The notes under the pieces are model-generated. The model was not told where the DNA came from. It ran no database searches and saw only the letters and a program-made list of their open reading frames with translations. A program made the position numbers and the translations under genes. Of a stretch of 64,000 nucleotides of DNA, positions 1 to 19,540 are shown in pieces. The stretch comes from Escherichia coli (GTDB lineage Bacteria > Pseudomonadota > Gammaproteobacteria > Enterobacterales > Enterobacteriaceae): NCBI RefSeq assembly GCF_003991155.1, contig NZ_CP031293.1; one strand, 5' to 3'. Every line of letters starts with the position of its first letter. Positions within the stretch are counted from its first letter, which is position 1.

Positions 1-729
1 GCGGCGCTTGTCGGCGGTCAGCAGGTCAGGTAAATCGAGGGTCAGAATGAGCCCGTTCAGCGGCTGACGGGCGCGCTTCTCTACCAGCCAGCCCAGGGCA
101 TGTTCCCATAACCGGCGGTGCAAAACATTTGCATCCGGCTGTTCACAGAGCGAGCCATCAATATCGAATATCACCGCCTGTTGCCCGACATGCGGGATGA
201 GATACAGGCGCGGCTCCGCCCCACGCACCGCTTCGGGGATATAAATTATGTCAGACGGAAAACCCTCGCGCAGCAGTGTCGTTTTGCCACTGCCCGCCGG
301 ACCGATAACCATATACCAGGGCAACTGCCACAGGTAGCGGCGGTTGTCGAGATGGCGTTGCAGGCGCAGTAACCAGCGGTCGAGGTAACGCTGCTGGGCG
401 TTCAGCTCCACGCTGAGCGGATCAACGGCCTCTTCGCGCTGCTGTTTTTGCTGTTTTTCAAGCTGTTGCAGGCGCTTCATTACCCGGACAGTAAGCCACA
501 CCAGGGCAATAATCCCCCATGCTGCCGTTGCCAGCCAGCGGTTAGCCAGTGGTTTGAGCCACTGTTCTTCATACAGCGTCCACGTCGGGCCTTTCCACCA
601 GATCCACACCAGCAGGAAAATCCACGCCAGTATCAGCAGCCAGAATGCAGAAACCTTAAACCGGGGCATCGCCGGGCGCAGGGCTGATTTGAGTCCGCTG
701 AATAGTCGGGGTGTTGGTAATCTGAACAC
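1..729 (-). CDS. tssM: TssM/IcmF-like T6SS membrane subunit, N-terminal part (continues beyond window start)
   Basis: Minus-strand frame open from GTG at 729 (GGAG 5 nt upstream) to position 1; translation contains Walker A GPAGSGKTT and an N-terminal hydrophobic segment. Absent from the ORF track because it has no stop in the window. Alternative ATG start at 669. Confidence 0.75.
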   Translation of the reverse strand, partial: MFRLPTPRLFSGLKSALRPAMPRFKVSAFWLLILAWIFLLVWIWWKGPTWTLYEEQWLKPLANRWLATAAWGIIALVWLTVRVMKRLQQLEKQQKQQREEAVDPLSVELNAQQRYLDRWLLRLQRHLDNRRYLWQLPWYMVIGPAGSGKTTLLREGFPSDIIYIPEAVRGAEPRLYLIPHVGQQAVIFDIDGSLCEQPDANVLHRRLWEHALGWLVEKRARQPLNGLILTLDLPDLLTADKRR

Positions 730-747
730 AAAAACTCCTGTTCTCTT

Positions 748-2176
748 TTATTGTTCTGCCGTGAATTTTTGTTCAAGCTGTTCAAGTAACGATGGCTCCC
801 AGTCGGCCACCATCATTTGCAACCCCATCCTGAACAACATCCGGTACTGCTGCTGCGCAAGCTGTACCAGCCCCGCCTCTTCCGTCAACTGGGCGGCAAG
901 GTACTGGCGGTGAAACTGATCGCGGGGATCGCCTTCGGGTAGCATGTCCAGATACCGCAGCGCCGCCTCCAGCCCCTGCTCAGCAAAACAGGCCCTGGCC
1001 GCCTGCGATTCCTCACCGGCCTGCGCAACCGGTGCCACTTTGCAGTCGGGCGAAGCGGACAGCCATTGTTTCGTCTGCTCACTGATAAACGGTGTGCGGT
1101 CATTAAACAGCAGCCCGGTAAGCTGGGGCAGGCGCTCAAGGAAGCGGGTGACCTCATCGCGGATGGCGTCTGCCACCTGTTTGTAACCCAGGCGCAGTGC
1201 CGTCTGTGCAGAAAGGCAGTGACCGTCCAGCCAGTAAGGAGCCAGCAGTACGCTTTTCTCCACCTGCTGCCACAGCGCCATATCCGCGCTGGCAAGCCGG
1301 GACTGGTAATCCGCCACCATATCGGCAGAAACCGCAGCCAGCGGGGTGCGTCCATCGCTTTCCACCTGGGGTGTACTGGTGATGTTCTGCCACAGCGCAT
1401 GGCGGCGCAGACGGTAGCCCTGCGGTGAGTCCGGCTGGCGTTCACATAAAATGGCCGCCACTTTTAACAGCGTGTCACGCCAGGCTTTGTCGTCGTGACT
1501 GTCAACCGTAACCTGGGGGGCCGGGACGGCAGGCGCCGTACTGGCGTTTTGCGAAGCAGCGGATACGGGAGCAGCAACGGTTTGCGCCAGTGTGCCGGTA
1601 TTTGCCGGAGAGGCCGGTGACACGGGCGCAGTACCATTAAACGCGCGCTGGTACAGGGCAAAAAGATCATCCGTCGCCTGTGCCAGTTCCGGGACGTTAT
1701 GCGACTGCCAGCACTGCGCCAGCTTTGCCAGTTCCCCCAGCAGCGCATCGCGCTGTGCCGTGGCTGCACTTTCCGCAAAAGACGTGACGCCCGCCTCAAA
1801 ACGTTTTATCACCTGACTGGCAAAGCGTTTTTTATGCGCCATATTCTGCGGCGCGGCCACCGCCCAGTAATGCTCCACATACAGCGCCAGCAGGCGCAAG
1901 GCCAGGAGCGGATCACCGGCATGTTGCAGGGTTCTCAGCAGATGCGCCAGCAGGCGAAAATCCTTACTCTCCGAAGCCAGAAGGACCAGCCCCCGGTGCT
2001 GGAGTTCAGGGATATCCAGCTGGCTGTGCGCCAGCGATCCCAGCTTGACAATCCCACCGTCGATATACTCCCAGTCCGGGTTATCGTCCTTCAGCGCTGA
2101 TGCCAGTTTCTCTTCCGGCAGGTTTTCCAGCAGGTGCGATACCCAGACATTCGGATCGCGTAAGTCCATTGCCATA
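748..2176 (-). CDS. tssA: TssA (ImpA N-terminal domain) T6SS protein
   Basis: ORF 748..2241; likely start MAMDLRDP at 2176 with GGAGA upstream; ImpA_N-like N-terminus; sits in the T6SS operon. Confidence 0.8.
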
Positions 2177-2179
2177 TTT

Positions 2180-2923
2180 TTATTCTCCCGCCCAGTGGCA
2201 GGCATCGCGCAGGGGTGCAATCGCCCCTGCCAGCCCGTCAATGTTAAAGGTCAGCTTTCCGGCGGCGTTGTCTGCGCCGGTATCCACCGTCAGCGTTTTT
2301 GCGCCAAATAACTGTTTAATTTCATCAATACCGGATAACCCCCGGCTGGACTCCAGCAGGGTGCCGTTCTCGCGTACAAACCAGTGGCTGCGTAATGCCC
2401 GGCTGTCAGCATTCAGGGTAACGGCGATATCATGGACATCCAGAGGGTGCATCAGCGCCACCTGCATCCGGGTAATATTGTCCACGCAACTGAACATCAG
2501 CACCGGGCGCGGCGGAACATGGCCGATAGCCGGGGTGGTTATCACCACCGTCGGGCGTTCCCCCGGCACCTGCGTCACCAGCAGCTCCGTGGTGTTGCCC
2601 TGGCGGCGTTTTTCCTGCTCTGTGGCGCGGGTCCAGGCTTCGCCCACAAAACCAGCTTTGACCAGCGCCCCGTCAAACCCTGACGGGGACAGCGGTTCCA
2701 GCAGGCGGTCATAGCAGTCAAGCCGCTCCAGCGCCGCAGACTCCCGCCGACAGGACTGCATGGCCTGTAACGTGGCTGTCGCATCCGGCGGTGTCGCTGT
2801 GGCGACAGCTACTGCCACACCGGCCATTGACGATGTTTCTGCGGGCGCGGCACTGGCGGGTAAGCCCGCCATCAGGCCCGCGATAAACCATCCTGTCTGC
2901 CGGAAAACGCGCAACCTGCTCAT
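2180..2923 (-). CDS. T6SS-associated secreted/periplasmic protein, VasI-like
   Basis: 247 aa with N-terminal signal peptide (hydrophobic stretch ending ASAAPA); start overlaps clpV stop; operon context. Confidence 0.5.
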   Translation of the reverse strand: MSRLRVFRQTGWFIAGLMAGLPASAAPAETSSMAGVAVAVATATPPDATATLQAMQSCRRESAALERLDCYDRLLEPLSPSGFDGALVKAGFVGEAWTRATEQEKRRQGNTTELLVTQVPGERPTVVITTPAIGHVPPRPVLMFSCVDNITRMQVALMHPLDVHDIAVTLNADSRALRSHWFVRENGTLLESSRGLSGIDEIKQLFGAKTLTVDTGADNAAGKLTFNIDGLAGAIAPLRDACHWAGE

Positions 2924-5658
2924 AAAACCGTTTCATCCTCTGTGACGGACTCGTCGTCCAGAGCATCTTCCACATCTGCTGTGAACGCGCCGTCTGCCGC
3001 CGACAGCCGAATCCGGGCAATCGCCGTGTTGGCTGCCATCTTCTGCAACAGCAGCAGGGAGAGCGGCGGCAGCATGTCGCCGTCAATGACCGATTCGAGC
3101 ATCCTCGCGCCGTTTTCCGCTCGGGTGACGCGGCTCATGATTTCGTCCGTCACTTCCGGTTCAATAATCACTTCTGCGCTAAAGCGGCTGCGCAGCACGT
3201 TATCCAGGCGGGTGAGTTTCCCGGCAATGATGGTGGCGAGTGTCTCTTTCGACAGCGGCAGGTACGGCACCACTTCCATACGCGCCAGCAGGGCAGGTTT
3301 AAAGAAGTCCGCCAGCACCGGATACAGGGCTTCCTGCATGGTTTCCGGGTCATCGGCATGTTCGACAATCACCTGGTAGCCGAGGTTGGAGGTGAGGAAG
3401 AAGACGATATTTTTGCAGTCAATCAGGCGGCCCTCACCGTCGGCCATCTCACCCTTGTCAAATGCCTGGTAGAACAGGTTGAGCACATCCGGGTGCGCTT
3501 TTTCCACTTCGTCGAGAAGTACCACCGAGTACGGTTTCTGGCGGATCGCTTCGGTCAGCACGCCGCCTTCGCCATAGCCGACATAGCCCGGAGGAGAACC
3601 AATCAGCCGCGAAACGGTGTGTTTTTCCTGAAACTCGGACATATTGATGGTGGTGAGGTACTGGCGACCGCCGTAGAGCAGCTCCGCCAGTTGCAGGACG
3701 GTTTCGGTTTTACCCACGCCGCTGGGGCCAGCCAGCAGGAACGCGCCAAGCGGACGTCCCGGACGGCGCAGGTCGGCGCGCGCGGTCAGCAGGTGTTTAT
3801 GCAGGCTGGCAATCGCCAGGTCCTGGCCTTTGATGGTGTCGCCCAGCCATACCGGCAGGTCGGTGATGACTGACATCTCATTCTGCGACAGGCGGTTAAG
3901 CGGCACACCGGTCCATTCGGCAATCACCGCCGCAATCTGTTTTTTATCGACATGCGGGGAAACCAGCAACCGGTCGTTATGCAGGGCGTCCAGTTCGGCA
4001 GTGAGCTGTGCCAGCCGCTGCACCGGGGAAACTGTTTCAGCGGTCTCTTCCGGCTGTACACTGCCAGCTTCATCAGCCGGTGTGGCACCGGTATTATCCT
4101 GCTCTGAATCTGGCGGCGTATCCACTACGACATCTGTGTCCTCTGCCACGCCCAGTAACTTCTGACGCAGCGCGATAATCTCCTGTACCAGCGTCTGTTG
4201 CTGATGCCAGGCGGCCTCCAGTTCATCCAGCGCCGTCAGCGTTTCATCATACTGCACCAGCACTTCGGTCATCCGTGTGGTGTCGGTACGCAGCCCGATG
4301 CGAAGCTCGCGCTCAAGCTGGCGAATTTCCGCCTCCTGCTGGTGGCTCAGGGTGGTCAGCGCCGAGATTTGCTTCGGTGGCGATGACAGGTTGATTGCCA
4401 CACGGGCGCAGGCGGTATCCAGCACATCAATGGCTTTGTCCGGCAACTGACGCCCGGAGAGATAACGCTCACTTAATGTCGCAGCGGCCTGCAAGGCGTC
4501 ATCATCAATCAGCACGCCGTGAGACTGTTCATAGACCGAAGAGAGGCCGCGCAGAATAATGGTGGCTTCGGCGGCACTGGGTTCGCTGACCTTCACCAAC
4601 TGGAAGCGGCGCGACAGGGCGGCATCTTTCTCAAAGTATTTTTTGTATTCGCTCCAGGTTGTGGCGGCGATGGTTTTCAGTTCGCCACGCGCCAGCGCCG
4701 GTTTGAGCAGGTTGGATATATCCAGCCCGCCCTGCTGGTTGCCCGCGCCAATCAGGGTGTGCGCTTCGTCAATAAACAGAATGACCGGCTCCGGGGACGA
4801 TATGACTTCCGCCATCAGCCCCTTGAAGCGTTTTTCAAACTCACCTTTCACCGACGCACCAGCCTGCAATGCGCCCAGGTCAAGGGTCATAATATCGGTG
4901 TTTTTCAGCTTGTCCGGCACCTGGCCTGTCACAATACGCAGCGCCAGCCCTTCAATCAGCGCGCTTTTTCCCACGCCTGCTTCGCCCACCACAACCGGGT
5001 TGTTTTTACGGCGGCGGCAGAGAATGTCGATCATCAGGTCAATTTCATGATCGCGGCACAGCACCGGGTCGAGCCTGCCGTTACGGGCATCTTCGGTCAT
5101 GTTTTTGGCGTAGCGGGCAAGCAGGGTGTCCCCTGTATCCACCACAACACTGACGGCCTTTTCGTCGACCCCCTGCATCGCGGTTTCTGCCGACTCGCGC
5201 GTCCACTGCGCAAAGTCCTGTTGCAGACGATCGCGGTTAATGCCGGTCAGCAGACGTGCGGCCACGCCGGGGACATAACGCAGTGGTGAATGCAGCAGGG
5301 CCAGCAGCAGTACACCGCCACGCAGTTCGCTGTGCTGCATCTCTGCGGAGGCCAGCAGCCCCCCCTCTTTCAGCCACTCGACCAGCATCGGGGAAAATGC
5401 CGGGTAATTGTCTGCTGTGCGCGACGTGGCGTAGTTCTCCACCGTCAGCGCCCGGCGAAGCTCATTCAGGTCGATGTCGGCCCGCTCAGAGATCACCCTT
5501 AAGTCGCTGCGCACTGATGCCAACATCTGCAACAGAACATGCGCCACCGTAATTTCCGATGCCTGCTGACTCATGCACTCCGCTGCCGCCGCTTCCAGCG
5601 CCTGGCGGGAAAACGGATTAAGATGTTTAACCAGTGAGGCCAGATTAATCTGGATCAT
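2920..5658 (-). CDS. clpV: ClpV/TssH AAA+ ATPase
   Basis: 912 aa; two AAA+ modules with Walker A GEAGVGKSA and GPSGVGKTE; Clp N-domain-like N-terminus. Confidence 0.9.
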   Translation of the reverse strand: MIQINLASLVKHLNPFSRQALEAAAAECMSQQASEITVAHVLLQMLASVRSDLRVISERADIDLNELRRALTVENYATSRTADNYPAFSPMLVEWLKEGGLLASAEMQHSELRGGVLLLALLHSPLRYVPGVAARLLTGINRDRLQQDFAQWTRESAETAMQGVDEKAVSVVVDTGDTLLARYAKNMTEDARNGRLDPVLCRDHEIDLMIDILCRRRKNNPVVVGEAGVGKSALIEGLALRIVTGQVPDKLKNTDIMTLDLGALQAGASVKGEFEKRFKGLMAEVISSPEPVILFIDEAHTLIGAGNQQGGLDISNLLKPALARGELKTIAATTWSEYKKYFEKDAALSRRFQLVKVSEPSAAEATIILRGLSSVYEQSHGVLIDDDALQAAATLSERYLSGRQLPDKAIDVLDTACARVAINLSSPPKQISALTTLSHQQEAEIRQLERELRIGLRTDTTRMTEVLVQYDETLTALDELEAAWHQQQTLVQEIIALRQKLLGVAEDTDVVVDTPPDSEQDNTGATPADEAGSVQPEETAETVSPVQRLAQLTAELDALHNDRLLVSPHVDKKQIAAVIAEWTGVPLNRLSQNEMSVITDLPVWLGDTIKGQDLAIASLHKHLLTARADLRRPGRPLGAFLLAGPSGVGKTETVLQLAELLYGGRQYLTTINMSEFQEKHTVSRLIGSPPGYVGYGEGGVLTEAIRQKPYSVVLLDEVEKAHPDVLNLFYQAFDKGEMADGEGRLIDCKNIVFFLTSNLGYQVIVEHADDPETMQEALYPVLADFFKPALLARMEVVPYLPLSKETLATIIAGKLTRLDNVLRSRFSAEVIIEPEVTDEIMSRVTRAENGARMLESVIDGDMLPPLSLLLLQKMAANTAIARIRLSAADGAFTADVEDALDDESVTEDETVL

Positions 5659-5669
5659 ATATTGTGTCC

Positions 5670-6488
5670 TTACCTGGCGAGCAGCCGGTTCAGTTGATGC
5701 AGAATATCCTGCGTCTGACTGTCCAGACGCAGCATGTAGAACAGATAAAACAATGCCAGTACCACCACGCCCCCCATCAGAACATGCTTTATGGTCAGGC
5801 GTTTCATTAACTGATAGCGCCCGCCCTGGGTCTTTTTGTCCTGGTGCAGTAATGGGAAGGGGGCATCGCCACGCAACGTATGCAGGACGTGGTGCAGACG
5901 GCGGTAGATCCGCTCAAACTCCCCCTGATCCTGGACGGCCACTTTGTAGCGCCCGCGAAATCCCAGCGAAAAACAGATAAAGATAAACTCCAGCAGATCC
6001 TGGTAGCGTTTTGGCTCACGGATCAGGCGCTCCAGCAGGATGAAGACCTTCTCCCCCCCCCAGGCTTCATTGTGGAAATGGACCAGCAGCGACTGTTTGA
6101 TCCACTCATTCTTGTTCGACCAGCCGTTACCCAGCGCAGCCTCATCGATAAAAGTGCACAGAACATAGCGAAAAGAGACGATCACGCCAGGCTCATAGCC
6201 CTGCTCCTGGAGTAACTGCTCCACTGCCTGAACGTCGGTCACAACCTGTGCAAAAAGATGTTCCGGCATGGTCTGACTGTTCATCCCGTCCAGGCGCATC
6301 ACCATCCCCAGTAACGGCGTGGCGGCATCGATCATCGGGTTCAGACTGTTACCGCGCAGGGGCAACCGGTACTGGCGGCTGGAAATATCGCCATCGCTGT
6401 CCGGCACCACGGTACTCTGCCTCTCCGGTATATTCCCCATAGCCAGATATTCATTTTCACCGGCTGGCAGGATGAACGGATCGTTCAT
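5670..6488 (-). CDS. tssL: TssL/DotU-family T6SS membrane protein
   Basis: 272 aa, C-terminal transmembrane helix (VLALFYLFYML), operon position between clpV and tssK. Confidence 0.8.
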   Translation of the reverse strand: MNDPFILPAGENEYLAMGNIPERQSTVVPDSDGDISSRQYRLPLRGNSLNPMIDAATPLLGMVMRLDGMNSQTMPEHLFAQVVTDVQAVEQLLQEQGYEPGVIVSFRYVLCTFIDEAALGNGWSNKNEWIKQSLLVHFHNEAWGGEKVFILLERLIREPKRYQDLLEFIFICFSLGFRGRYKVAVQDQGEFERIYRRLHHVLHTLRGDAPFPLLHQDKKTQGGRYQLMKRLTIKHVLMGGVVVLALFYLFYMLRLDSQTQDILHQLNRLLAR

Positions 6489-6492
6489 GGCC

Positions 6493-7836
6493 TTAACCTC
6501 TTATTGCCCACAGTTGTACCCCCAGATCCGGGAAAGTGCCGGAAATATGCAGCGCCAGTGCCCCGGCTTTCATCACGTCCTGCCAGGCAGCTACGCCCTT
6601 GTCGAGTTCGAAGTAAACATAACCGTCGTGATAGGGTAACTGGCGCGGCGCGGCGGTCCGTGGCGTCAGCGGCACGCCCGGCACCTGGACGCTGACCATA
6701 TCGCGGATTTTGTTGGTGGCGGCAATTTTTGACTGCTGGGTAAACTGGTGGATAAGCTGGCTGTGAGGCATTCGCGCACGCACCGCCAGAATAAAGGTGC
6801 CGGACTGCAACAGTGTAGGATCGTTAACGGTGGCGACATAAAACCCATCCGAGAAGACCAGCGGCAGGTTCTGCGCACGCGGCATCAGTACAGTATTGAG
6901 CGCCCGGCGCAGTTCCGGGATCACGGTACTGAATGAGTGGGTCAGATCGCGGTGACTGTACACCTCCACCGGACAGGGAAGACGGCTGTCCTCCGTGAAG
7001 GTCATCAGTTCACCCAGCAGGCGAACAAGATCCAGATAAAAGGTTTCCGGATGCAGGGTATGCAGGTGCGTGCGGTGAGTGAAGTGCATCTGGCTGCGGT
7101 TAAGCATCTGCAACATCATAAACTCGGCCACATCGGCAATGCCACTTTGCTCTGGCGAGCCAATACGCTTTGCCAGTTCGCTGGCGCGGTTGCTGATAAG
7201 CCCCTGCACATCACCGGCAAACCCGCTGAGTACCGGACTGACCCGGATGGCCTGACAGGTGGGAATAAAACTGTCGTCCAGCACCAGCGCGCCATTAGCC
7301 AGCTTGTCACGGATACGGCACAGCGGCAGCGTCACCATTGCGCTGAGATCATCCGCACCGCTGACAATTTTGGGTGCAAGTTGCCCGAGGACAATTTGCT
7401 GAACATCGCCATCATCAGAGTGCAAATCACGGACATCAGCACGGGCCAGGCGGTAACGCTCCGTCCCCTGCCCTGCGCTCTGACGTCCCTCAATTTCACA
7501 GGTAATATCGCTGATGACAGGCAGCGCCAGATAAATGTCATGGCTTCCGGGTTTTGAGAGATCAAGCGGCTGATACGGGACAGGAAGCTGATCCTGCTCC
7601 GGAATGCTGAACACCGTACCATCCGGCATACAGCCTGCTGCGTTGTCGAGCATGAGTTTTCCCTGGGCCAGCAGCTCGGTGTTAATCGACAATGACGTGA
7701 AGCCCCAGGCAAAATCATCCTGTGCGCTGATACGCTGGTTCAGCAAATACTCCTGGTTCCGCTGCTGTTGCTGAAAATGCTGCGGCAGGGCAAACAACCC
7801 TTCCTGCCAGATCACCCTGTTTTTCATGGTCGCCAT
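6493..7836 (-). CDS. tssK: TssK baseplate protein
   Basis: ORF 6493..7938; probable start MATMKNRVIWQEG at 7836 directly after tssJ stop. Confidence 0.8.
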   Translation of the reverse strand: MATMKNRVIWQEGLFALPQHFQQQQRNQEYLLNQRISAQDDFAWGFTSLSINTELLAQGKLMLDNAAGCMPDGTVFSIPEQDQLPVPYQPLDLSKPGSHDIYLALPVISDITCEIEGRQSAGQGTERYRLARADVRDLHSDDGDVQQIVLGQLAPKIVSGADDLSAMVTLPLCRIRDKLANGALVLDDSFIPTCQAIRVSPVLSGFAGDVQGLISNRASELAKRIGSPEQSGIADVAEFMMLQMLNRSQMHFTHRTHLHTLHPETFYLDLVRLLGELMTFTEDSRLPCPVEVYSHRDLTHSFSTVIPELRRALNTVLMPRAQNLPLVFSDGFYVATVNDPTLLQSGTFILAVRARMPHSQLIHQFTQQSKIAATNKIRDMVSVQVPGVPLTPRTAAPRQLPYHDGYVYFELDKGVAAWQDVMKAGALALHISGTFPDLGVQLWAIRG

Positions 7837-7838
7837 TG

Positions 7839-8372
7839 TCAGTTTTCCTCTTTTTTCATTTCGATACTGCTTTGCCTTACATGCACCAGCAAACGGTAGT
7901 GATGGCCTGTACCTTCCACCGCTTCGATTTGTTTCCATTCGGTCGCCTGGTCATCGGAGAAGTAGGCCACGACACCGATAAACTGCGTTTTCTCATCCAG
8001 CTTTACCGGCGGCAGGGTTTTAATGGTGTCCGGCAGCAGGTTAAAGTCCTGGTGGTCGATATAGTTTTTACCCAGCACATCCGGCAGCGGCGTACTGGCG
8101 ATCTGGTCATAGTCGGCTGCCTGCAACTTAGAGTCGTCGCTCATATAAATCAGTTGCACATCAACTGCCGCCGCCTCACCTTCTGCATTAATATTTGTGT
8201 CCGGCTCGGTCAGCAACGTGACCGTCACCTCTGAGGCCTGATCCGCCAGTTTCCCGACCTGAATATCCGGATTCTTGATCACCTGGCCGAGCTTTTTCAC
8301 TGTTTCGCAGCCTGTCAGGGTGAGGCTGAACAGCACCACCATCGTGCAGACGCGAAAGAAGCGCGCGGTCAT
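7839..8372 (-). CDS. tssJ: TssJ outer-membrane lipoprotein
   Basis: 177 aa; signal peptide with lipobox LTGC; T6SS context. Confidence 0.8.
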   Translation of the reverse strand: MTARFFRVCTMVVLFSLTLTGCETVKKLGQVIKNPDIQVGKLADQASEVTVTLLTEPDTNINAEGEAAAVDVQLIYMSDDSKLQAADYDQIASTPLPDVLGKNYIDHQDFNLLPDTIKTLPPVKLDEKTQFIGVVAYFSDDQATEWKQIEAVEGTGHHYRLLVHVRQSSIEMKKEEN

Positions 8373-9667: not shown

Positions 9668-9671
9668 AAAA

Positions 9672-12505: not shown

Positions 12506-12509
12506 CAGA

Positions 12510-12938
12510 TTACTCCACACACCAATGCTGGTGGTTATCCAGCAAAATATCAAATTCCAGAACATCCTGTCGGTCACTGAAATCTATGTACGCTACAATA
12601 TGAAAACCTAGCTCCAGTGGCGCGTGCATTTCCTCTTCGGCAGCACTAACCACCACATCAGAAATGCGGGGTTCGTAACGCAGAATGCTATTTTTAATAG
12701 CCAGAATCATCCAGTCCCGGATGTTCATGGAGTCAGGGGAGCCATCATTAAAATCTACAATCCCAAGCTCCGGAGAACCGTGGCAACTACCAGAACGGGT
12801 GTTGAGTATATTGCGCAGGTTATTGCGAACAGAATGCAACAACGCCACCTTTGGACGTTGACGCGAAGAGGGATTTACCGCCTCACCAATACGCTCAAAC
12901 AAACTTCCTCCCGACTCCCGTTCCGTTACCATGCTCAC
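12510..12938 (-). CDS. tssE: TssE (gp25-like) baseplate protein
   Basis: 142 aa; ATGA overlap with tssC stop; gp25-like size and position. Confidence 0.8.
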   Translation of the reverse strand: MSMVTERESGGSLFERIGEAVNPSSRQRPKVALLHSVRNNLRNILNTRSGSCHGSPELGIVDFNDGSPDSMNIRDWMILAIKNSILRYEPRISDVVVSAAEEEMHAPLELGFHIVAYIDFSDRQDVLEFDILLDNHQHWCVE

Positions 12939-14419
12939 TCCTTGTCCAGACGTCCGACCAGGGATAATTCAAATGAAGCCCCCATGTATTTGAAGTGCGG
13001 ACGTACTGCGATATTGACCTGATACCAGCCCGGTTCACCTTCAACATCAGCAACTTCAATTTTTGCCTGGCGTAATGGCTTGCGGCTGCGAACTTCTGAA
13101 GGCGGGTTTTCCTGGTCAGCCACATACTGACGAATCCAGGTGTTTAACTCGCGTTCAAGATCTCCACGCTCTTTCCATGAACCCAACTGTTCACGCTGAA
13201 GCACTTTAATGTAATGCGCCAGCCTGTTGATAATGAACAGATAAGGAAGCTGAGTGCCCAGTTTGTAGTTAGTCTCGGCTTCTTTTCCTTCCGGCGTATT
13301 GGGGAATACTTTCGGCTTCTGTACTGAATTGGCGGAGAAAAATGCTGCATTGTCAGAGCCTTTACGCATAGTCAGAGTGATGAAACCCTGCTCTGCCAGC
13401 TCATACTCCCGTCTGTCGGTAATGAGAATTTCCGTCGGGACTTTAGCCTGAAGCTGGCCCATAGCCTCATATAAATGCACGGGCAAATCTTTTACAGCAC
13501 CACCACTTTGTGGACCGACAATATTCGGGCACCAGCGCGTTGACATGAAACTCTCAGCCATGTTTGCTGCCAGCAGAAACGCGGTGTTACCCCACAAATA
13601 GTGTTCGTGGTTTTTGCTGACATTTTCATGATAATTAAAGCTTTTCACCGGATTCTCATCAGGCGCATAAGGGTGACGCAACAGGAAACGCGGTGCTGTC
13701 AGACCGAGATTTCGGGAGTCTTCTGACTCACGCAGTGAACGCCATTTGGTGTAAGCCGGGCCTTCGAAAATGGCGGCAACATCCTTGATACCAGGAAGTT
13801 CGGTAAACGAATCCAGGCCAAAGAAATCAGGGGAAACGGAAGACAGGAACGGGCAGTGAGCCATCGCGCTGACTGCGCTGATATATTTCAGCAGCTTCAT
13901 ATCGGCGGCGGTATTATCGAAAGCGTAATTACCAATAACAGCGGCAACTGGCTCCCCACCAAACTGGCCGAAACCACTGGAATAAACATGCCGGTAGTAT
14001 CCTGACTGGGTAATTTCCGGAGCAAATTCAAAATCATCCAGCAGTTCTTCTTTGGTAGCATGCATCAGATGAATTTTGATGTTTTCGCGCGGATCGGCAT
14101 GGTCAACCAGCAGTTTCAGTGAACGCAGGAACGATTCCAGCTCCTGAAACTCCGGGGCATGGAGAATCAAATCCATTTGACGCCCCATGCGCTCATCGAT
14201 GTCAGCAATCATGCCATTGACGGCAAGAATATCGACGGACTCCGCCTCTTCATCACTTTGTAACAGCGCAGTGATAAAAGCAGTCACGCCCTGACGGGCA
14301 ATATCGTAGCTTTCTGATTCCGGTTTAAAACGAGTCTGCGCCATGATTTCATCCAGCAGGGTGGGCGCGGAGACCGGTGCAGCGGAAGCAGATACTTCCG
14401 GTAAGGTAGTTTCTGACAT
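12935..14419 (-). CDS. tssC: TssC/VipB contractile sheath large subunit
   Basis: ORF 12935..14470; probable start MSETTLPEV at 14419 with AAGGA RBS; ~494 aa. Confidence 0.9.
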   Translation of the reverse strand: MSETTLPEVSASAAPVSAPTLLDEIMAQTRFKPESESYDIARQGVTAFITALLQSDEEAESVDILAVNGMIADIDERMGRQMDLILHAPEFQELESFLRSLKLLVDHADPRENIKIHLMHATKEELLDDFEFAPEITQSGYYRHVYSSGFGQFGGEPVAAVIGNYAFDNTAADMKLLKYISAVSAMAHCPFLSSVSPDFFGLDSFTELPGIKDVAAIFEGPAYTKWRSLRESEDSRNLGLTAPRFLLRHPYAPDENPVKSFNYHENVSKNHEHYLWGNTAFLLAANMAESFMSTRWCPNIVGPQSGGAVKDLPVHLYEAMGQLQAKVPTEILITDRREYELAEQGFITLTMRKGSDNAAFFSANSVQKPKVFPNTPEGKEAETNYKLGTQLPYLFIINRLAHYIKVLQREQLGSWKERGDLERELNTWIRQYVADQENPPSEVRSRKPLRQAKIEVADVEGEPGWYQVNIAVRPHFKYMGASFELSLVGRLDKE

Positions 14420-14438
14420 ACTGAAGTCCTTGTACAAG

Positions 14439-14945
14439 TTATTTCCGGCCTGCGAGGCCCAGCTCTGCAATCAGTTGCTCACGGCTCTTTTCGTCATCAA
14501 GCAATGCCTGAAGTTGTGCACGGAACGCAGGGATATTGCCCATTGGCCCCCGAAGCGCCACCAATGCTTCGCGTAGTTCCAGCATTTTGCGCATCTCCGG
14601 CACCTGGGAGGCAATGTTGTCCGGAGAAAGATCGGCCAGCGAGCTGATTTTCAGATTTACGCTCATGCGCGTATCAGGCGTTTCGCTGAGAGCAGACGGA
14701 ACGGTGAAATCACGACCAATCCCTGCCTGATCCAGCACTGCGTTAAAGTTGTTGCGGTTGATGGCAACGGGCTGGCGCTCATCCAGTGGCGTGTTATCTG
14801 CATCACCTGTCAAATTGCCAGTAACCAACAGATTTAGCGGTAATTCCACTTCTGCTGTCTGATTCCCCGTTTTTGGCTTAAATTTAATATTTACTCTTTC
14901 TTTTGGGGCAATACTGCCACCACCGTCATTTCTTCTGCTGCTCAT
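14439..14945 (-). CDS. tssB: TssB/VipA sheath small subunit
   Basis: ORF 14439..15026; probable start MSSRRNDGGGS at 14945 (168 aa). Confidence 0.8.
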   Translation of the reverse strand: MSSRRNDGGGSIAPKERVNIKFKPKTGNQTAEVELPLNLLVTGNLTGDADNTPLDERQPVAINRNNFNAVLDQAGIGRDFTVPSALSETPDTRMSVNLKISSLADLSPDNIASQVPEMRKMLELREALVALRGPMGNIPAFRAQLQALLDDEKSREQLIAELGLAGRK

Positions 14946-15232
14946 AAGAATAATCCATAAGGTTATCATCCAGGCCATGAGCGCAGCATGTTCTGCATTT
15001 AAAAAATACAGCAAATACCAGCCCAATGGCAGTAAAAAAATAAAATTCTACACATTCATAGCGTCACATTCTACGCGCAGAAAAGCATTTGAAAAGAAAA
15101 TTTTCAAGGGGTATCCTTCCACGAAACAATAGGAACAACAAAAGACAAAGAAGCCTGAAACCATGCATGCCAAGCACGCAATGCCCAATAGTGAATTATG
15201 TAACTCATTGATTTTAGATCTTTGATCAAGAA

Positions 15233-15312
15233 ACATAAGGATTTCTTATGACTTACAGAATATATATAAATTCCGTGATTATAATTTGAAATAAAATAAG
15301 GATATCCTTATT
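15233..15312. promoter_or_regulatory. Divergent tssB/hcp promoter region with two ATAAGGAT-centred palindromes
   Basis: CATAAGGATTTCTTATG (15233..15249) and perfect 18-bp palindrome AATAAGGATATCCTTATT (15295..15312) in an AT-rich ~570 bp intergenic region. Confidence 0.35.
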
Positions 15313-15627
15313 TTTATCAAAGTGACAATTAAGAACAACAGAATATAATATATATTCATGATAAAGCCATGCCTTTTATAGATGGTGATTGAAAAACATT
15401 TACCAACCACTAGCGATCATCCACTCGTTGATTAAAGTTTAACTAAACAGAAAGTTTAAAATTTGTAAAAACAATTATTACGACAAGCGTTAATTCGCAT
15501 TGTCTGTAAATCAAGCACAGAGAAATGGTGTGGTTCTAGGCATGGACCGTATCGTTATCTGCCTGCCAGGGATTAATGGCAGGTCATCAGCAAGTTGTTG
15601 TTAAGAACATTCACAAGGAGTTTACAA

Positions 15628-16146
15628 ATGCCAACACCGTGTTATATCTCAATTACTGGTCAGACCCAGGGAAACATCACCGCAGGTGCATTTACTGCTG
15701 ATTCCGTCGGCAATATCTACGTGCAGGGCCATGAAGATGAAATGCTGGTGCAGGAATTCCTGCATAACGTCACCGTCCCGACGGACCCACAATCTGGCCA
15801 GCCAGCCGGACAGCGCGCTCACAAGCCATTTATCTTCACTGTGGCGCTGAACAAAGCAGTCCCCCTGCTGTACAACGCGCTGGCCTCCGGTGAAATGCTG
15901 CCTACCACTGAACTGCACTGGTGGCGTACCTCTGTGGAAGGCAAACAGGAACATTACTTCACTACCCGCCTGACAGACTCGACAATTGTTGATATGAAGT
16001 TGCATATGCCGCACTGCCAGGACCCGGCAAAACGCGAGTTCACCCAGTTACTCGAAGTTTCGCTGGCCTACCGCAAAATCGAGTGGGAACACGTTAAGTC
16101 AGGCACTTCTGGCGCTGACGACTGGCGTGCACCGCTGGAAGCATAA
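15628..16146 (+). CDS. hcp: Hcp (TssD) T6SS tube protein
   Basis: Start MPTPCYISITGQTQG at 15628 with AAGGAG RBS; 172 aa. Confidence 0.9.
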   Translation: MPTPCYISITGQTQGNITAGAFTADSVGNIYVQGHEDEMLVQEFLHNVTVPTDPQSGQPAGQRAHKPFIFTVALNKAVPLLYNALASGEMLPTTELHWWRTSVEGKQEHYFTTRLTDSTIVDMKLHMPHCQDPAKREFTQLLEVSLAYRKIEWEHVKSGTSGADDWRAPLEA

Positions 16147-16156
16147 GTTAAGACAA

Positions 16157-16190
16157 CAGCATCCGACCGTCTGGCCGGGTGCTGTTTTTG
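16157..16190 (+). terminator. Rho-independent terminator after hcp
   Basis: GC-rich hairpin (CAGCATCCG ... CGGGTGCTG) followed by TTTTTG. Confidence 0.5.
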
Positions 16191-16359
16191 TATTACACCG
16201 CAGGAAAAAAGGTTGTCAGTAAGGGGTTACGTTTTTACGGGAGATGGCGGATGCCGGATACTTCGGCGGTAGCGTGCCTGAAATCCAGCGTAACACTGTA
16301 CTGTCACAGCAACTGAACTGTGGAGTGTGTGTTTTCCTGTAAGCATCAGGGAGGTCTAA

Positions 16360-18348
16360 ATGTCATTAAAAGGATTGCGTTTTACGCTGAAAGTGGACGG
16401 CCAAAATGCGGACACCTTCGCCGTGGTAAATTTCTGGCTGATGCAGAATTTCTCGTTTCCATTTGTTATGGATGTAGATGTCGCCAGCAAGGAGTTTGGT
16501 ATTCAAGCAAATAGCTTGCTGGAAAAAAAAGCCACGCTGATCATCTGGCAGGGCCCCAAGGCGCTGCGTTATGTATCGGGTGTAATTGCCAGTTTCGGAA
16601 TGAAAGAAAACAATAACTGGCAGATGCAGTACCGCCTTCGTATCCAGCCACCTCTGTGGCGTAGCGGCCTACGCCAGAATTTCCGTATTTTTCAACAGCA
16701 AGATATTGCAACTATTTCAGCCACCTTACTGGATGAGAATGGTGTAACAGACTGGGAGCCATCCTTAAACAGTGAGCACCCTACTCGCGAGTTCTGCGTA
16801 CAGTATGGCGAAACGGACCTGGCATTTCTGTCACGGCTATGGGCAGAAGAAGGCATTTATTTTTATGATAAGTTAGCCCCGAACGGCCCGGATCAGAAAC
16901 TGACATTATGTGATGATGCAGCAGGTTTGTCGCCAATAGGAACCATTACCTTCAACCCAAATACCCGAACTGAAGCCGACAAGGAGTGCATCAATGCGTT
17001 TCATTACGAAGCTAATGTTCGTCCTTCATCAATACTGAGCAAAGACTACACCTTTAAAACCCCCGGCTGGGAAGGCAAATATATCCGACAGGGCGAGAAT
17101 CTGAACAACCAGTTTGAACAGTATGAAATCTATGACTACCCAGGACGTTTCAAGGATGAACAGCACGGGCAGGATTTTACCCGTTATCAGATGGATGGGT
17201 TGCGTAATGATGCGGAATTAGGCAGCGGTAGCAGCAATTCGCCGAGGCTATGGCCAGGAACCCGTTTCAAACTGGAGAACCATCCACAGAAAACCCTGAA
17301 CCGGGAATGGCAAGTGATCGGTAGCACACTAACGGGCGAACAGCCGCAGGCATTACATGGTAGCCAGGGTTACGGAACCTCGATGCATAACCAGTTTACT
17401 GTTATCCCGGCAGACCGTACCTGGCGTCCACAGCCAATGATGAAGCCAAAGGTAGATGGTCCACAAAGTGCCATTGTCACCGGTCCGGCTGGCGAGGAAA
17501 TTTTCTGCGATGAACATGGCCGGGTACGGGTGAAGTTTCACTGGGACAGAACCAAAACCAAAGATGAGAATAACTCCTGTTGGGTACGAGTGTCACAAGC
17601 CTGGGCTGGAGCCGGATTCGGCAACCTTGCCATTCCGCGTATAGACCAGGAAGTGATTGTCGATTTTCTTAACGGCGATCCCGACCAGCCCATCATCATG
17701 GGACGTACTTATCACCAGGATAACCGCTCTCCCGGTGGTCTGCCTGGCACCAAAACGCAGATGACTATCCGTTCAAAAACCTACAAAGGTGAGGGTTTTA
17801 ACGAACTACGTTTTGAGGATGCGACCAGTAACGAACAGCTTTATATGCACGCCCAGAAGGACATGGTGACAGAGGTACTGCATGACCGGACGACAACAGT
17901 GGATCACGACCATACCGAAACAGTGAAGAATAACCAGACGGTCACAGTAGTTGTTGGTCAGACGGTCAATGTGGGCAGTAAAAAAGAAGGCGGACACGAC
18001 CAGAAAGTGACGGTTGCCCACGACCAGACAGTCACGGTTCAGAACAACCAGACGCTGAATGTCACAGAAAAGCGTGAAAAAAATGTGGGTGGAGACCAGA
18101 AGGTCACTATCACTGGCGGCGATGATGAAACTGTCATGAAGTCGCAAAAGGTAACAGTAAAAGAAAACTATACGCTTGATGTCACCAAAGAAACGAAGAT
18201 TATTTCCGGCGAGTCGATTGAGCTTATCTGTGGCTCCTGCTCCCTGAAAATGGAAAAAGGTGGCAAGGTAACAATCTCCGGCTCAGAGTTTGATTTTACT
18301 GCTGGTGGCCTTGTGCATATCAACGGTAAAGACGTATTTATCAACTGA
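16360..18348 (+). CDS. vgrG: VgrG (TssI) spike protein, no C-terminal extension
   Basis: 662 aa; gp27/gp5-like; C-terminal beta-helical repeats (VTVAHDQTVTVQNNQTLNVTEKREKNVGGDQKVTITGGDDETV). Confidence 0.9.
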   Translation: MSLKGLRFTLKVDGQNADTFAVVNFWLMQNFSFPFVMDVDVASKEFGIQANSLLEKKATLIIWQGPKALRYVSGVIASFGMKENNNWQMQYRLRIQPPLWRSGLRQNFRIFQQQDIATISATLLDENGVTDWEPSLNSEHPTREFCVQYGETDLAFLSRLWAEEGIYFYDKLAPNGPDQKLTLCDDAAGLSPIGTITFNPNTRTEADKECINAFHYEANVRPSSILSKDYTFKTPGWEGKYIRQGENLNNQFEQYEIYDYPGRFKDEQHGQDFTRYQMDGLRNDAELGSGSSNSPRLWPGTRFKLENHPQKTLNREWQVIGSTLTGEQPQALHGSQGYGTSMHNQFTVIPADRTWRPQPMMKPKVDGPQSAIVTGPAGEEIFCDEHGRVRVKFHWDRTKTKDENNSCWVRVSQAWAGAGFGNLAIPRIDQEVIVDFLNGDPDQPIIMGRTYHQDNRSPGGLPGTKTQMTIRSKTYKGEGFNELRFEDATSNEQLYMHAQKDMVTEVLHDRTTTVDHDHTETVKNNQTVTVVVGQTVNVGSKKEGGHDQKVTVAHDQTVTVQNNQTLNVTEKREKNVGGDQKVTITGGDDETVMKSQKVTVKENYTLDVTKETKIISGESIELICGSCSLKMEKGGKVTISGSEFDFTAGGLVHINGKDVFIN

Positions 18349-18358
18349 GGCGTGAAAA

Positions 18359-19540
18359 ATGGAATTTCGTAATCTTACGCCGTTTTCAGTAATGCAATAT
18401 GCAATGGACGACAAACACAACGAGCGTCATTGTGTGGTCGCCATGAAAACCGGCTTCCGGCTGAAGCAGGACGAGAATGGTCAGTGGCAGGCACAACTGA
18501 TGGAAAACCCGCCATTGCCGCTCTGTGTGGAGGATGAGTATGCCGGGGAGATGAACACCTCTCCGGTACTGCGTGAAAGTGACCTTGCTCCTCTGAAACC
18601 CGCCTGTGACATCATCATCAACGGAACAGCTTATACGCCGGGAGGCGCTGCCGTGCCAGAAATGACGGCAGGCGTTCTTATGCTCTCATCGACAGGTGAG
18701 GTGCTGACAGACAAAAAACTGCGGATAACAGGCCAGCGTTTCTACAGGTACCAGCCGTTAATCCGCCAGTGGTATGAAACTGAACCGGAACCCTTCACCT
18801 CCCTGCCGCTTGACTACCGTTACGCTTTCGGCGGCGAATGCCGCGTGGAGGCAGGCAGCGAATATGCCAGCCGCGTCCCCGAAGAATATCGCCTGACCGA
18901 AGACCAGCGTCGGGAACACCCAAACCAGGAGAATCCACCACTGGCGCATATGGCCTGTCCGGTCAATCCACTCGGATTAGGCTATATGCAGCAGTGGTAT
19001 CTGCGGGCCTGTCAGGTTCAGCAGGTTGAAGCGCCCCGCATCATCGCCGTGGACAGCCCATTCACACTCAAACAGTTCACAGACTGTCTCGAAGGGAAAG
19101 CAGACTGGTTTGCCCCCGAATTTCAGCCAGCCGGTTTTGGCTGTATCGGGCGCGCCTGGCTGCCACGGTTATCTCTTGCTGGCACCTATGACCAGGAGTG
19201 GCTGGAAACACAACACCCCGACCTGCCGGATGATTTTGATTTTAACTACTGGAACTGCGCCCCGGATGACCAGCGCATCCCTTTTCCTCTGCCAGGACTG
19301 GGATTTGTACTGACGGGTTTTCGCCCGGAGGGCGATATCCGGTTCACCCTGCCCGCACATGAAGGACGCCTTCTGTTGCGCGCCATGAGCGGGCATCGAA
19401 TGCCATTACCCATGTTGCTGGATACGGTGGAAATCAATACTGACACCCTGACCGTGGCGCTGACCTGGCGCTTTCTGCTGCCCAACAGCACACCACCGGT
19501 GCGGGTACTGGAAGCCCGCTACAGAACAAGGAGCGCCTAA
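18359..19540 (+). CDS. DUF2169-family adaptor protein
   Basis: 393 aa between vgrG and PAAR-Rhs, the typical position for this adaptor family. Confidence 0.65.
   Translation: MEFRNLTPFSVMQYAMDDKHNERHCVVAMKTGFRLKQDENGQWQAQLMENPPLPLCVEDEYAGEMNTSPVLRESDLAPLKPACDIIINGTAYTPGGAAVPEMTAGVLMLSSTGEVLTDKKLRITGQRFYRYQPLIRQWYETEPEPFTSLPLDYRYAFGGECRVEAGSEYASRVPEEYRLTEDQRREHPNQENPPLAHMACPVNPLGLGYMQQWYLRACQVQQVEAPRIIAVDSPFTLKQFTDCLEGKADWFAPEFQPAGFGCIGRAWLPRLSLAGTYDQEWLETQHPDLPDDFDFNYWNCAPDDQRIPFPLPGLGFVLTGFRPEGDIRFTLPAHEGRLLLRAMSGHRMPLPMLLDTVEINTDTLTVALTWRFLLPNSTPPVRVLEARYRTRSA

What the first reader, a model, noticed from the sequence alone, without database searches (positions are those of the whole stretch)
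1..19540. Complete 13-component T6SS core set in two divergent operons
Every core component is present (tssA, B, C, hcp, E, F, G, clpV, vgrG, J, K, L, M) plus tagH, a VasI-like gene and a DUF2169 adaptor. Genes are tightly packed with overlapping stops and starts. The cluster looks intact and functional rather than novel; it frames the effector loci downstream.
Basis: partly seen in the sequence, partly recalled or inferred. Interest (0 to 1): 0.3.

Follow-up and report, generated by a model that had tools for sequence, protein, structure and literature searches.

The report
Ordinary intact E. coli T6SS-2 cluster
This is a normal, intact-looking type VI secretion (contractile toxin-injecting) gene cluster of the well-known E. 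coli "T6SS-2" type. One core gene, tssM, is cut off by the window edge, and the only unusual points are its rare tRNA-Asn island location and its mosaic ancestry.

Summary
Curated HMMs assign every listed ORF to the named family above the curated cut-off: TssA, VasI, TssH/ClpV, TssL, TssK, TssJ, TagH, TssG, TssF, TssE, TssC and TssB on the minus strand, and Hcp, VgrG and DUF2169 on the plus strand. None has an internal stop.

Two corrections apply. tssM is not complete in the window: only its first 213-243 codons of about 1143 are present. Only 2 of 12 minus-strand junctions truly overlap.

The window is 100% identical to E. coli CREC-544 and 27 other complete genomes. There tssM is full length and is followed by vasL, a second hcp, a P4-type integrase and tRNA-Asn (asnT).

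Gene order matches the canonical E. coli T6SS-2 at aspV and the Vibrio cholerae large cluster minus vasH.

New details:
- The cluster sits on a ~46-kb asnT island with a 17-bp att-like repeat at 35662-35678.
- Only 28 of 5426 complete E. coli genomes carry it.
- It is a chimera. The tssM-to-tssH part is E. coli-like (92-94% nt). The rest is closest to Citrobacter and Lelliottia (80-87% nt).

Verdict: ordinary and already annotated. Low interest.

The parts
1..729 (-). tssM, 5' part only (membrane-complex subunit). The gene continues ~2.8 kb beyond the window start.
   Evidence: TIGR03348 at 147 bits, model positions 2-219 of 1168. Walker A motif GPAGSGKT. Full 1143-aa ORF in identical genomes. 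The start is uncertain: RefSeq uses the CTG at 639, there is an ATG at 669, and a GTG at 729 lies 5 nt after AGGAG.
748..2175 (-). tssA
   Evidence: TIGR03362 at 489 bits, full length. Pfam ImpA_N + T6SS_VasJ.
2180..2923 (-). vasI (tagO) accessory gene
   Evidence: TIGR03360 at 257 bits. Pfam VasI at 180 bits.
2920..5658 (-). tssH / clpV AAA+ ATPase. It contains the mosaic breakpoint at about 4950-5250.
   Evidence: TIGR03345 at 1122 bits. Two Walker A and two Walker B motifs. Sliding-window identity.
5670..6440 (-). tssL (DotU type, no peptidoglycan-binding domain)
   Evidence: TIGR03349 at 209 bits. Pfam finds DotU only.
6493..7836 (-). tssK baseplate subunit
   Evidence: TIGR03353 at 419 bits.
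7839..8342 (-). tssJ outer-membrane lipoprotein
   Evidence: TIGR03352 at 126 bits. Lipobox LTGC.
8369..9655 (-). tagH (FHA-domain accessory protein)
   Evidence: TIGR03354 at 351 bits. Pfam T6SS_FHA_C.
9672..10715 (-). tssG baseplate subunit
   Evidence: TIGR03347 at 319 bits.
10682..12505 (-). tssF baseplate subunit
   Evidence: TIGR03359 at 532 bits.
12510..12932 (-). tssE baseplate subunit (gp25-like)
   Evidence: TIGR03357 at 111 bits.
12935..14419 (-). tssC sheath large subunit
   Evidence: TIGR03355 at 677 bits. 71% aa identity to V. cholerae VipB.
14439..14945 (-). tssB sheath small subunit
   Evidence: TIGR03358 at 168 bits.
14946..15627 (.). Divergent AT-rich control region (34% GC) between tssB and hcp
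   Evidence: 8 sigma-70-like sites against 3.2 expected; the best is GTGACA-16-TATAAT at 15322-15349. No sigma-54 site. No good Fur box, best 12/19. 20-bp perfect palindrome at 15294-15313.
15628..16146 (+). hcp (tssD) tube protein
   Evidence: TIGR03344 at 208 bits.
16156..16189 (+). Terminator-like hairpin plus U-run after hcp
   Evidence: -20.5 kcal/mol, z = -3.5, followed by UUUUU.
16360..18348 (+). vgrG (tssI) spike, no C-terminal toxin domain
   Evidence: TIGR03361 at 605 bits. Pfam Phage_GPD, Phage_base_V and Gp5_trimer_C.
18359..19540 (+). DUF2169 adaptor/chaperone gene
   Evidence: PF09937 at 222 bits, full length.
19543..23961 (+). PAAR-like Rhs toxin, the presumed cargo of the VgrG/DUF2169 pair.
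   Evidence: Pfam Tox-PAAR-like (109 bits), DUF6531 and RHS repeats. TIGR03696 Rhs core. The C-terminal 150 aa have no Pfam match.
35662..35678 (+). 17-bp att-like repeat of the tRNA-Asn 3' end; right boundary of the island that carries the T6SS
   Evidence: CCAGTCAGAGGAGCCcA, 1 mismatch, 0.00 expected by chance. The conserved island terminus is seen again at 63247-63330. asnT plus integrase lie at the left end in the source genome.

Best explanation
Window 1-19540 is most of an intact type VI secretion gene cluster of the E. coli T6SS-2 kind. This is the Vibrio cholerae-like layout, called subtype i1 from general knowledge.

Inferred mechanism, from established knowledge of the families:
- TssJ, TssL and TssM form the envelope-spanning membrane complex.
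- TssE, F, G and K plus the VgrG trimer form the baseplate.
- TssA primes and caps polymerisation of the Hcp tube inside the TssB/C sheath.
- Sheath contraction fires Hcp and VgrG, with the attached toxin, into a neighbouring cell.
- ClpV (TssH) then disassembles the contracted sheath.
- TagH, VasI and, outside the window, VasL are accessory factors.

The cargo encoded immediately downstream is a 1472-aa PAAR-like Rhs toxin. The DUF2169 protein is predicted to load it onto VgrG.

Transcription is most likely sigma-70 dependent from the 682-bp AT-rich divergent spacer. A leaky terminator after hcp would give excess Hcp over VgrG.

Shown here: gene identities, intactness, synteny, island context and mosaic ancestry. 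Inferred: assembly, firing, toxin loading, regulation and antibacterial role.
For: - Family assignments are all above curated cut-offs. There are no internal stops, and starts are ordinary except for tssM.
- The ATPase, lipobox and Walker motifs are present.
- Gene order is identical to E. coli T6SS-2 at aspV in two sub-lineages: hcp2-vasL-tssM-tssA-vasI-tssH-tssL-tssK-tssJ-tagH-tssG-tssF-tssE-tssC-tssB <> hcp-vgrG-(DUF2169-PAAR or Rhs). The reviews say T6SS-2 clusters carry an FHA gene and Rhs elements (PMC10711316, PMC6730261).
- The order also matches the V. cholerae large cluster, with TssC 71% and TssH 58% identical. The exception is vasH, which is present in V. cholerae and absent here.
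- The DUF2169 gene sits directly before a Tox-PAAR-like (DUF4150-type) effector.
- tssM is full length in the source genome.
- The sequence is 100% conserved over 19.5 kb in 28 genomes from humans, livestock, pets and wastewater. Only one of them has an IS insertion, in tssF.
Against: - No expression or secretion data exist for this locus.
- tssM cannot be judged from the window alone.
- The 34% GC control region suggests H-NS silencing under laboratory conditions (inference).
- No activator is encoded in the island: no vasH, and no PpkA/PppA partner for TagH.
- The 100% identity among carriers probably reflects one recent clone rather than long-term purifying selection.
- The Rhs C-terminal toxin domain has no recognisable family, so the target is unknown.
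Confidence: 0.9

Rival explanations
1. The cluster is genetically intact but cryptic. It would be a horizontally acquired, H-NS-silenced passenger of the asnT island that is not fired in its E. coli host.
For: - The control region is AT-rich at 34% GC, against 56% in the operon.
- No dedicated activator is encoded.
- The chimeric composition could mismatch interacting parts, for example E. coli-like TssM/TssA with Citrobacter-like TssJ/K/L.
- One carrier has already lost tssF to ISCro1.
Against: - All 16 genes are open and full length in 27 of 28 carriers.
- The breakpoint keeps the ClpV N-domain with its TssC partner.
- Silencing by H-NS is usual for active T6SSs and is conditional (general knowledge).
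Confidence: 0.25
2. The system is used mainly against eukaryotic host cells as a virulence or colonisation factor, as reported for T6SS-2 of NMEC RS218, APEC and EHEC, rather than for interbacterial killing.
For: - It is the same T6SS-2 architecture, with two Hcp genes, as the RS218/APEC locus (PMC4224132 abstract).
- Carriers include clinical isolates.
Against: - The encoded cargo is a PAAR-like Rhs followed by small immunity-like ORFs.
- Orphan Rhs-CT modules follow, including an AHH nuclease with an Imm11 immunity protein. This is the signature of antibacterial effector/immunity arrays.
- Carriers come largely from wastewater and healthy livestock.
Confidence: 0.15
3. The cluster is degenerate: a pseudogenised remnant that only looks complete.
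For: - tssM is incomplete in the window.
- T6SS-2 degeneration is documented in EHEC O157:H7 and avian strains (PMC12981562; PMC10562709).
Against: - The truncation is a window-edge effect. tssM is 1143 aa without stops in the identical genomes.
- No internal stops occur in any gene.
- All HMM alignments are end to end.
Confidence: 0.03

Closest known systems
E. coli T6SS-2 cluster at the aspV-yafV locus, in two sub-lineages (O104:H4/EDL933-like 'A' and APEC O1/ST131-like 'B')
   Same: Gene content and order are identical, including tagH, vasI, vasL, two hcp genes and a divergent hcp-vgrG-effector arm. The tssM-tssA-vasI-tssH part is 88-96% aa and 92-94% nt identical to sub-lineage A.
   Different: - It lies on an integrase-bearing asnT island, not at aspV.
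- tssK, G, F, E, C, B and vgrG are only 46-76% aa identical to A and 62-81% to B.
- It lacks the small ORF found between tssC and tssB in A.
- Only 28 of 5426 genomes carry it.
T6SS clusters of Citrobacter sedlakii, C. youngae, Lelliottia spp. and the gut isolate MGYG-HGUT-00110
   Same: They are the best matches for tssL through tssB, vgrG and DUF2169: 77-95% aa and 80-87% nt, in the same order. MGYG-HGUT-00110 also has the DUF2169 gene (86%) and a related PAAR-Rhs.
   Different: tssA (69-73%) and vasI (64-73%) are much more distant than the E. coli versions. No sampled species reaches 90% nt, so no donor can be named.
Vibrio cholerae large T6SS cluster (VCA0107-0123, vipA..vasL)
   Same: The order tssB-C-E-F-G-tagH-J-K-L-H-vasI-tssA-tssM is the same. 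TssC is 71% identical, TssH 58% and TssF 41%.
   Different: V. cholerae has the sigma-54 activator VasH between tssH and vasI. Here vasI overlaps tssH by 4 bp, and no sigma-54 promoter is found in the control region.
DUF2169 adaptor with a DUF4150/PAAR-like effector (e.g. Agrobacterium Atu3641-Tde2; recalled from the literature, not re-read here)
   Same: The vgrG - DUF2169 - PAAR-like effector gene order is the same.
   Different: The effector here is a 1472-aa Rhs cage protein with an unclassified C-terminal toxin. The interaction is untested.
tRNA-Asn integrating islands with a P4-type integrase and 17-bp att repeats (Yersinia HPI type)
   Same: The island has an integrase next to asnT and a 17-bp repeat of the tRNA 3' end at the far end. 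HPI uses the same asnT site (PMC10562709).
   Different: The cargo is a T6SS plus Rhs array instead of yersiniabactin genes. IS3 and ISEc1 insertions and a truncated relE suggest that the island is decaying.

Membership tests
Canonical T6SS (13 core components TssA-M) | TssA, B, C, D (Hcp), E, F, G, H (ClpV), I (VgrG), J, K and L are each present as a full-length ORF matching the family model | tested here: met
   NCBIfam equivalog or subfamily models all score above their curated cut-offs with near end-to-end model coverage. No internal stops.
Canonical T6SS (13 core components TssA-M) | Full-length TssM | tested here: inconclusive
   The window holds only the first ~213-243 aa: 147 bits against a cut-off of 388, model positions 2-219 of 1168. 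In genomes 100% identical over the region the ORF is 1143 aa with no stop and is annotated tssM.
Canonical T6SS (13 core components TssA-M) | Hcp secretion and sheath contraction (functional definition) | not testable with these tools
   This needs secretion assays or imaging.
E. coli T6SS-2 (Journet and Cascales classification, as used in PMC10711316 and PMC10562709) | Characteristic gene organisation, including the FHA gene, vasI/tagO, and Rhs downstream of vgrG | tested here: met
   Gene-for-gene colinearity with two aspV T6SS-2 loci. A PAAR-Rhs lies downstream.
E. coli T6SS-2 (Journet and Cascales classification, as used in PMC10711316 and PMC10562709) | Sequence clustering with E. coli T6SS-2 proteins | tested here: inconclusive
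   The left third does cluster with them (88-96% aa to sub-lineage A). The baseplate and sheath genes are nearer to Citrobacter/Lelliottia than to either E. coli sub-lineage. No formal tree was built.
E. coli T6SS-2 (Journet and Cascales classification, as used in PMC10711316 and PMC10562709) | Usual chromosomal site between aspV and yafV | tested here: not met
   The cluster lies between asnT/mtfA and cbl on an integrase island. This is a habit of the family rather than a defining feature.
V. cholerae-type (subtype i1) T6SS | Synteny and high TssB/C similarity to the V. cholerae large cluster | tested here: met
   Same order. TssC is 71% identical and TssB 53%. The 'i1' label itself comes from general knowledge, not from a tree built here.
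V. cholerae-type (subtype i1) T6SS | VasH sigma-54 enhancer-binding activator and sigma-54 promoters | tested here: not met
   There is no gene between tssH and vasI. VasH is present in V. cholerae L064. No TGGCAC-N5-TTGCW match lies in 14946-15627.
DUF2169 adaptor / PAAR-like effector module | A DUF2169 protein encoded between vgrG and a DUF4150/Tox-PAAR-like effector | tested here: met
   PF09937 at 222 bits. PF13665 at 109 bits at the N-terminus of the next ORF. The gaps are 10 and 2 bp.
DUF2169 adaptor / PAAR-like effector module | Physical VgrG-adaptor-effector complex required for secretion | not testable with these tools
   This needs pull-down and secretion assays.
tRNA-Asn integrative genomic island | Tyrosine integrase adjacent to the tRNA, and a direct repeat of the tRNA 3' end at the distal boundary | tested here: met
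   A P4-type integrase (Arm-DNA-bind_3, Phage_int_M, Phage_integrase) lies 167 bp from asnT. A 17-bp repeat with 1 mismatch lies at 35662-35678, with 0.00 expected by chance.

The most novel reading that the evidence does not exclude
The cluster could be an undescribed, mobile and chimeric version of T6SS-2. In this reading, a Citrobacter/Lelliottia-like T6SS arrived in one E. coli lineage on an asnT-integrating island. Its tssM-tssA-vasI-clpV(AAA) segment was exchanged with an E. coli-type T6SS-2. The junction falls inside clpV, so that the ClpV N-domain stays with its TssB/C partners. This would be a natural example of module swapping between the membrane-complex and baseplate/sheath halves of a T6SS.
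Probability: 0.5. Interest if true: 0.3.

Novelty: already known. Interest (0 to 1): 0.12.

Why it matters
It matters little as a discovery. The genes, their order and their likely mechanism are textbook T6SS, and PGAP already annotates them in 28 public genomes.

The modest added value is epidemiological and evolutionary:
- E. coli can carry a T6SS-2-type machine at a second site, an asnT island.
- In its carriers this is the only T6SS-2-like locus that megablast detects.
- Its structural genes are a patchwork of E. coli-like and Citrobacter-like segments.

The last point bears on how interchangeable T6SS sub-assemblies are. The cluster also defines the delivery machine for the Rhs effector and orphan arrays further along the window.

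Tried and rejected
- **Sigma-54 promoter scan** (TGGCAC-N5-TTGCW, up to 2 mismatches). It gave 37 hits against 43 expected in the window and none in the tssB-hcp spacer. V. cholerae-style VasH control is rejected.
- **Fur-box scan of the spacer.** The best match was 12/19, so there is no support for Fur control as in EAEC Sci-1.
- **Rfam on the whole window.** Nothing was found inside 1-24000.
- **Tandem repeats.** None in 1-24000.
- **Dispersed repeats.** Only short chance-level pairs were found, apart from the CCGGCACCTG motif.
- **The 20-bp palindrome in the spacer.** It was tested for conservation in 14 related loci and found in none. It is therefore not proposed as a conserved operator.
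- **Literature searches** for a T6SS at asnT or aspV. No description of this island was found.
- **Pfam on the Rhs C-terminal toxin and the adjacent small ORFs.** No family was found.
- **Pseudogene or degenerate reading.** Rejected.
- **AR Bank #0349 as the source strain.** It was assumed at first, but the window departs from it after 31540. It matches CREC-544 exactly over 1-19540 and 31000-55000.
Full report
**Observation**

The six-frame ORF map of 1-24000 shows a continuous run of minus-strand ORFs from the window start to 14945. Plus-strand ORFs run from 15628 onward.

The translated ORFs were scanned against NCBIfam and Pfam. Each ORF received one clear assignment, above the curated cut-off and covering the model nearly end to end:

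| Gene | Coordinates | Bits |
|---|---|---|
| TssA | 748-2175 | 489 |
| VasI | 2180-2923 | 257 |
| TssH/ClpV | 2920-5658 | 1122 |
| TssL (DotU) | 5670-6440 | 209 |
| TssK | 6493-7836 | 419 |
| TssJ | 7839-8342 | 126 |
| TagH | 8369-9655 | 351 |
| TssG | 9672-10715 | 319 |
| TssF | 10682-12505 | 532 |
| TssE | 12510-12932 | 111 |
| TssC | 12935-14419 | 677 |
| TssB | 14439-14945 | 168 |
| Hcp | 15628-16146 | 208 |
| VgrG | 16360-18348 | 605 |
| DUF2169 | 18359-19540 | 222 |

The next ORF (19543-23961) is a Tox-PAAR-like / DUF6531 / RHS-repeat protein. None of the genes has an internal stop. E-values run from 1e-32 to 0, so chance is not an issue.

**Corrections to the observation**

1. tssM is cut by the window edge. 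The minus-strand frame below tssA is open all the way to base 1. It matches only positions 2-219 of the 1168-position TssM model, at 147 bits against a cut-off of 388. The window therefore holds 12 complete core genes and about a fifth of the 13th.
2. With realistic starts, only two junctions overlap: vasI/tssH by 4 bp and tssG/tssF by 34 bp. The rest are gaps of 2-52 bp. The impression of pervasive overlap comes from maximal ORFs that extend to upstream TTG or GTG codons.
3. Downstream of hcp lies a stable hairpin followed by a U-run (-20.5 kcal/mol, z = -3.5). A further 213 bp separate hcp from vgrG. 'Two operons' is therefore the gene layout, not a demonstrated transcript map.

**Source and context**

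- Region 1-19540 is 100.0% identical to 28 complete E. coli chromosomes.
- The window matches strain CREC-544 (NZ_CP024826.1) exactly over both stretches compared, 1-19540 and 31000-55000. It departs from AR Bank #0349 after 31540.
- In these genomes RefSeq annotates exactly the genes listed above.
- There tssM is complete (1143 aa, no stops).
- It is followed by a VasL-domain gene (ImpA_N + VasL), a second hcp, three hypothetical genes, an IS3, a relE fragment and a P4-type tyrosine integrase. tRNA-Asn (asnT) next to mtfA comes last.
- The 17-bp 3' end of tRNA-Asn recurs with one mismatch at window 35662-35678, just before cbl. Chance expectation is 0.00.
- The ~60 bp preceding that repeat resemble the sequence preceding another such repeat at 63230-63246.

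The T6SS and the Rhs loci that follow it are therefore the cargo of an asnT-integrated island of about 46 kb. This is the site used by the Yersinia high-pathogenicity island in other E. coli (PMC10562709).

**What kind of T6SS**

Gene order is identical, gene for gene, to the E. coli T6SS-2 cluster at aspV-yafV. Two sub-lineages of that cluster were fetched for comparison. L003 represents the O104:H4/O157-like form, called 'A' here. L004 represents an ST131/APEC-like form, called 'B'. The literature also distinguishes these two T6SS-2 sub-lineages, and it defines T6SS-2 by this organisation with an FHA gene and Rhs (PMC10562709, PMC10711316, PMC6730261).

The same order occurs in the V. cholerae large cluster, with TssC 71% identical. 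V. cholerae, however, has the sigma-54 activator VasH between tssH and vasI. Here those two genes overlap by 4 bp, and no sigma-54 promoter motif is present in the control region.

The 682-bp tssB-hcp spacer is 34% GC. It is enriched in sigma-70-like hexamer pairs, with 8 found against 3.2 expected. It is poorly conserved among relatives, at 48-59% identity. I infer sigma-70 promoters and probable H-NS sensitivity. This is inference only.

**Rarity and mosaic ancestry**

Only 28 of 5426 complete E. coli genomes carry this version. The next-best matches to the tssG-tssB segment are about 74% identical. Carriers show a single matching place per genome, so they have no second T6SS-2-like locus detectable by megablast.

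Protein comparisons and a 600-bp sliding nucleotide identity on a six-way alignment show a chimera:

- **From tssA to about 4950-5250, inside tssH.** The sequence is 92-94% identical to E. coli T6SS-2 sub-lineage A. TssM is 91% aa identical, TssA 88% and VasI 96%. Identity to Citrobacter and Lelliottia is only 64-86%.
- **From that point through vgrG.** The best matches are Citrobacter sedlakii, C. youngae, the gut isolate MGYG-HGUT-00110 and Lelliottia, at 80-87% nt. TssK is 93% aa identical, TssC 95% and TssG 91%. Identity to sub-lineage A drops to 57-73% nt over most of this stretch (about 80-84% across tssJ and the adjacent end of tagH). TssE is 46% aa identical, TssG 56%, TssF 59% and TssB 58%.
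- **The junction.** It corresponds to ClpV residues ~136-236. The ClpV N-domain is known to recognise TssC, and it travels with the Citrobacter-like sheath genes. This observation fits co-adaptation but may be chance.
- **The donor.** No sampled species exceeds 90% nt, so no donor can be named.
- **GC content.** It falls from 58-62% in tssM-tssH to 48-52% in tssF-tssB, in line with the two-part origin.

**Mechanism (inferred from the families)**

- TssJ (lipobox LTGC), TssL (C-terminal transmembrane helix, no peptidoglycan-binding domain) and TssM (Walker A GPAGSGKT) form the membrane complex.
- TssE, F, G and K plus VgrG form the baseplate.
- TssA coordinates polymerisation of the Hcp tube and the TssBC sheath.
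- Contraction expels Hcp, VgrG and the toxin.
- ClpV recycles the sheath. Both its AAA domains have Walker A and B motifs.
- TagH has no kinase or phosphatase partner in the island, as in V. cholerae and the aspV loci.
- DUF2169 is predicted to load the PAAR-like Rhs protein onto VgrG. This gene order recurs in E. coli sub-lineage B and in the Citrobacter-like loci.
- Downstream orphan Rhs C-terminal modules include an AHH nuclease with an Imm11 partner. They point to an antibacterial role.

None of these steps has been shown experimentally for this locus.

**Verdict**

The caveats are the window-edge truncation of tssM, the overstated overlaps and the untested function.

The system is a member of a thoroughly known family, and it is already annotated in public genomes. 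The asnT-island location, the restriction to what is probably one lineage, and the chimeric make-up are small, real additions. I could not find them described. They do not raise the finding above low interest.

Noticed in passing
window 600-760 (minus strand): The RefSeq start of tssM corresponds to a CTG at 639. A GTG at 729 sits 5 nt after an AGGAG and only 18 bp after the tssA stop, and an ATG lies at 669. The annotated TssM N-terminus may be 10-30 residues too short.
   Followed up: partly
window 15294-15313: A perfect 20-bp palindrome, AAATAAGGATATCCTTATTT, lies in the middle of the divergent tssB-hcp control region. It sits just upstream of the best sigma-70-like site (GTGACA-16-TATAAT, 15322-15349). 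It is absent from 14 related loci, so it may be a lineage-specific operator or chance.
   Followed up: partly
window 2563, 4914, 6678, 14597 (+ strand): The 10-mer CCGGCACCTG occurs four times in one orientation: in vasI, tssH, tssK and tssB. On the coding strand it reads CAG GTG CCG G, encoding Q-V-P. The vasI/tssH pair, 2351 bp apart, is the direct repeat reported to have caused a 2.4-kb tagO-tssH deletion in an avian strain (PMC10562709).
   Followed up: partly
window 35662-35678, 38009-38084, 48915-48931, 63230-63246: There is a series of tRNA-Asn-associated islands. An att-like repeat closes the T6SS island at 35662. asnW at 38009 starts a second island of ~10.9 kb, closed by a repeat at 48915. 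It presumably corresponds to the island that, in AR Bank #0349, carries an integrase, RelE/ParE, a reversed Rhs and a DUF2169 fragment; that region of CREC-544 itself was not annotated here. A further exact repeat lies on the minus strand at 63230, with no tRNA called there, and is preceded by the same ~60-bp island terminus seen at 35600-35660.
   Followed up: partly
window 23500-28880: The main Rhs C-terminal ~150 aa and the small ORFs after it (23981-24271, 24421-24807) have no Pfam family. Two orphan Rhs C-terminal modules follow: 24807-26030 with a 175-aa partner, and 26778-28310 carrying an AHH nuclease with an Imm11 protein at 28323-28880.
   Followed up: partly
window 46063-46185: A full-length isrC Hfq-binding sRNA (Rfam RF01387, 145 bits) lies inside the second asn-tRNA island.
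   Followed up: no
NZ_CP150994.1 (strain CUVET16-465), region homologous to window 9000-14945: One of the 28 carrier genomes has an ISCro1 (IS66-like) insertion splitting tssF. The system is therefore already being inactivated in at least one isolate.
   Followed up: no
window 1-14945: GC content falls from 58-62% (tssM, tssA, vasI, tssH) to 48-52% (tssF, tssE, tssC, tssB). This parallels the mosaic boundary found by sequence identity.
   Followed up: yes
window 31541 onward, compared with L002 (AR Bank #0349): The window is identical to AR Bank #0349 up to 31540 and then goes out of register. It matches CREC-544, MRY15-117 and MRY15-131 exactly over 31000-55000. The carriers therefore differ in the IS/Rhs-rich part of the island.
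   Followed up: partly
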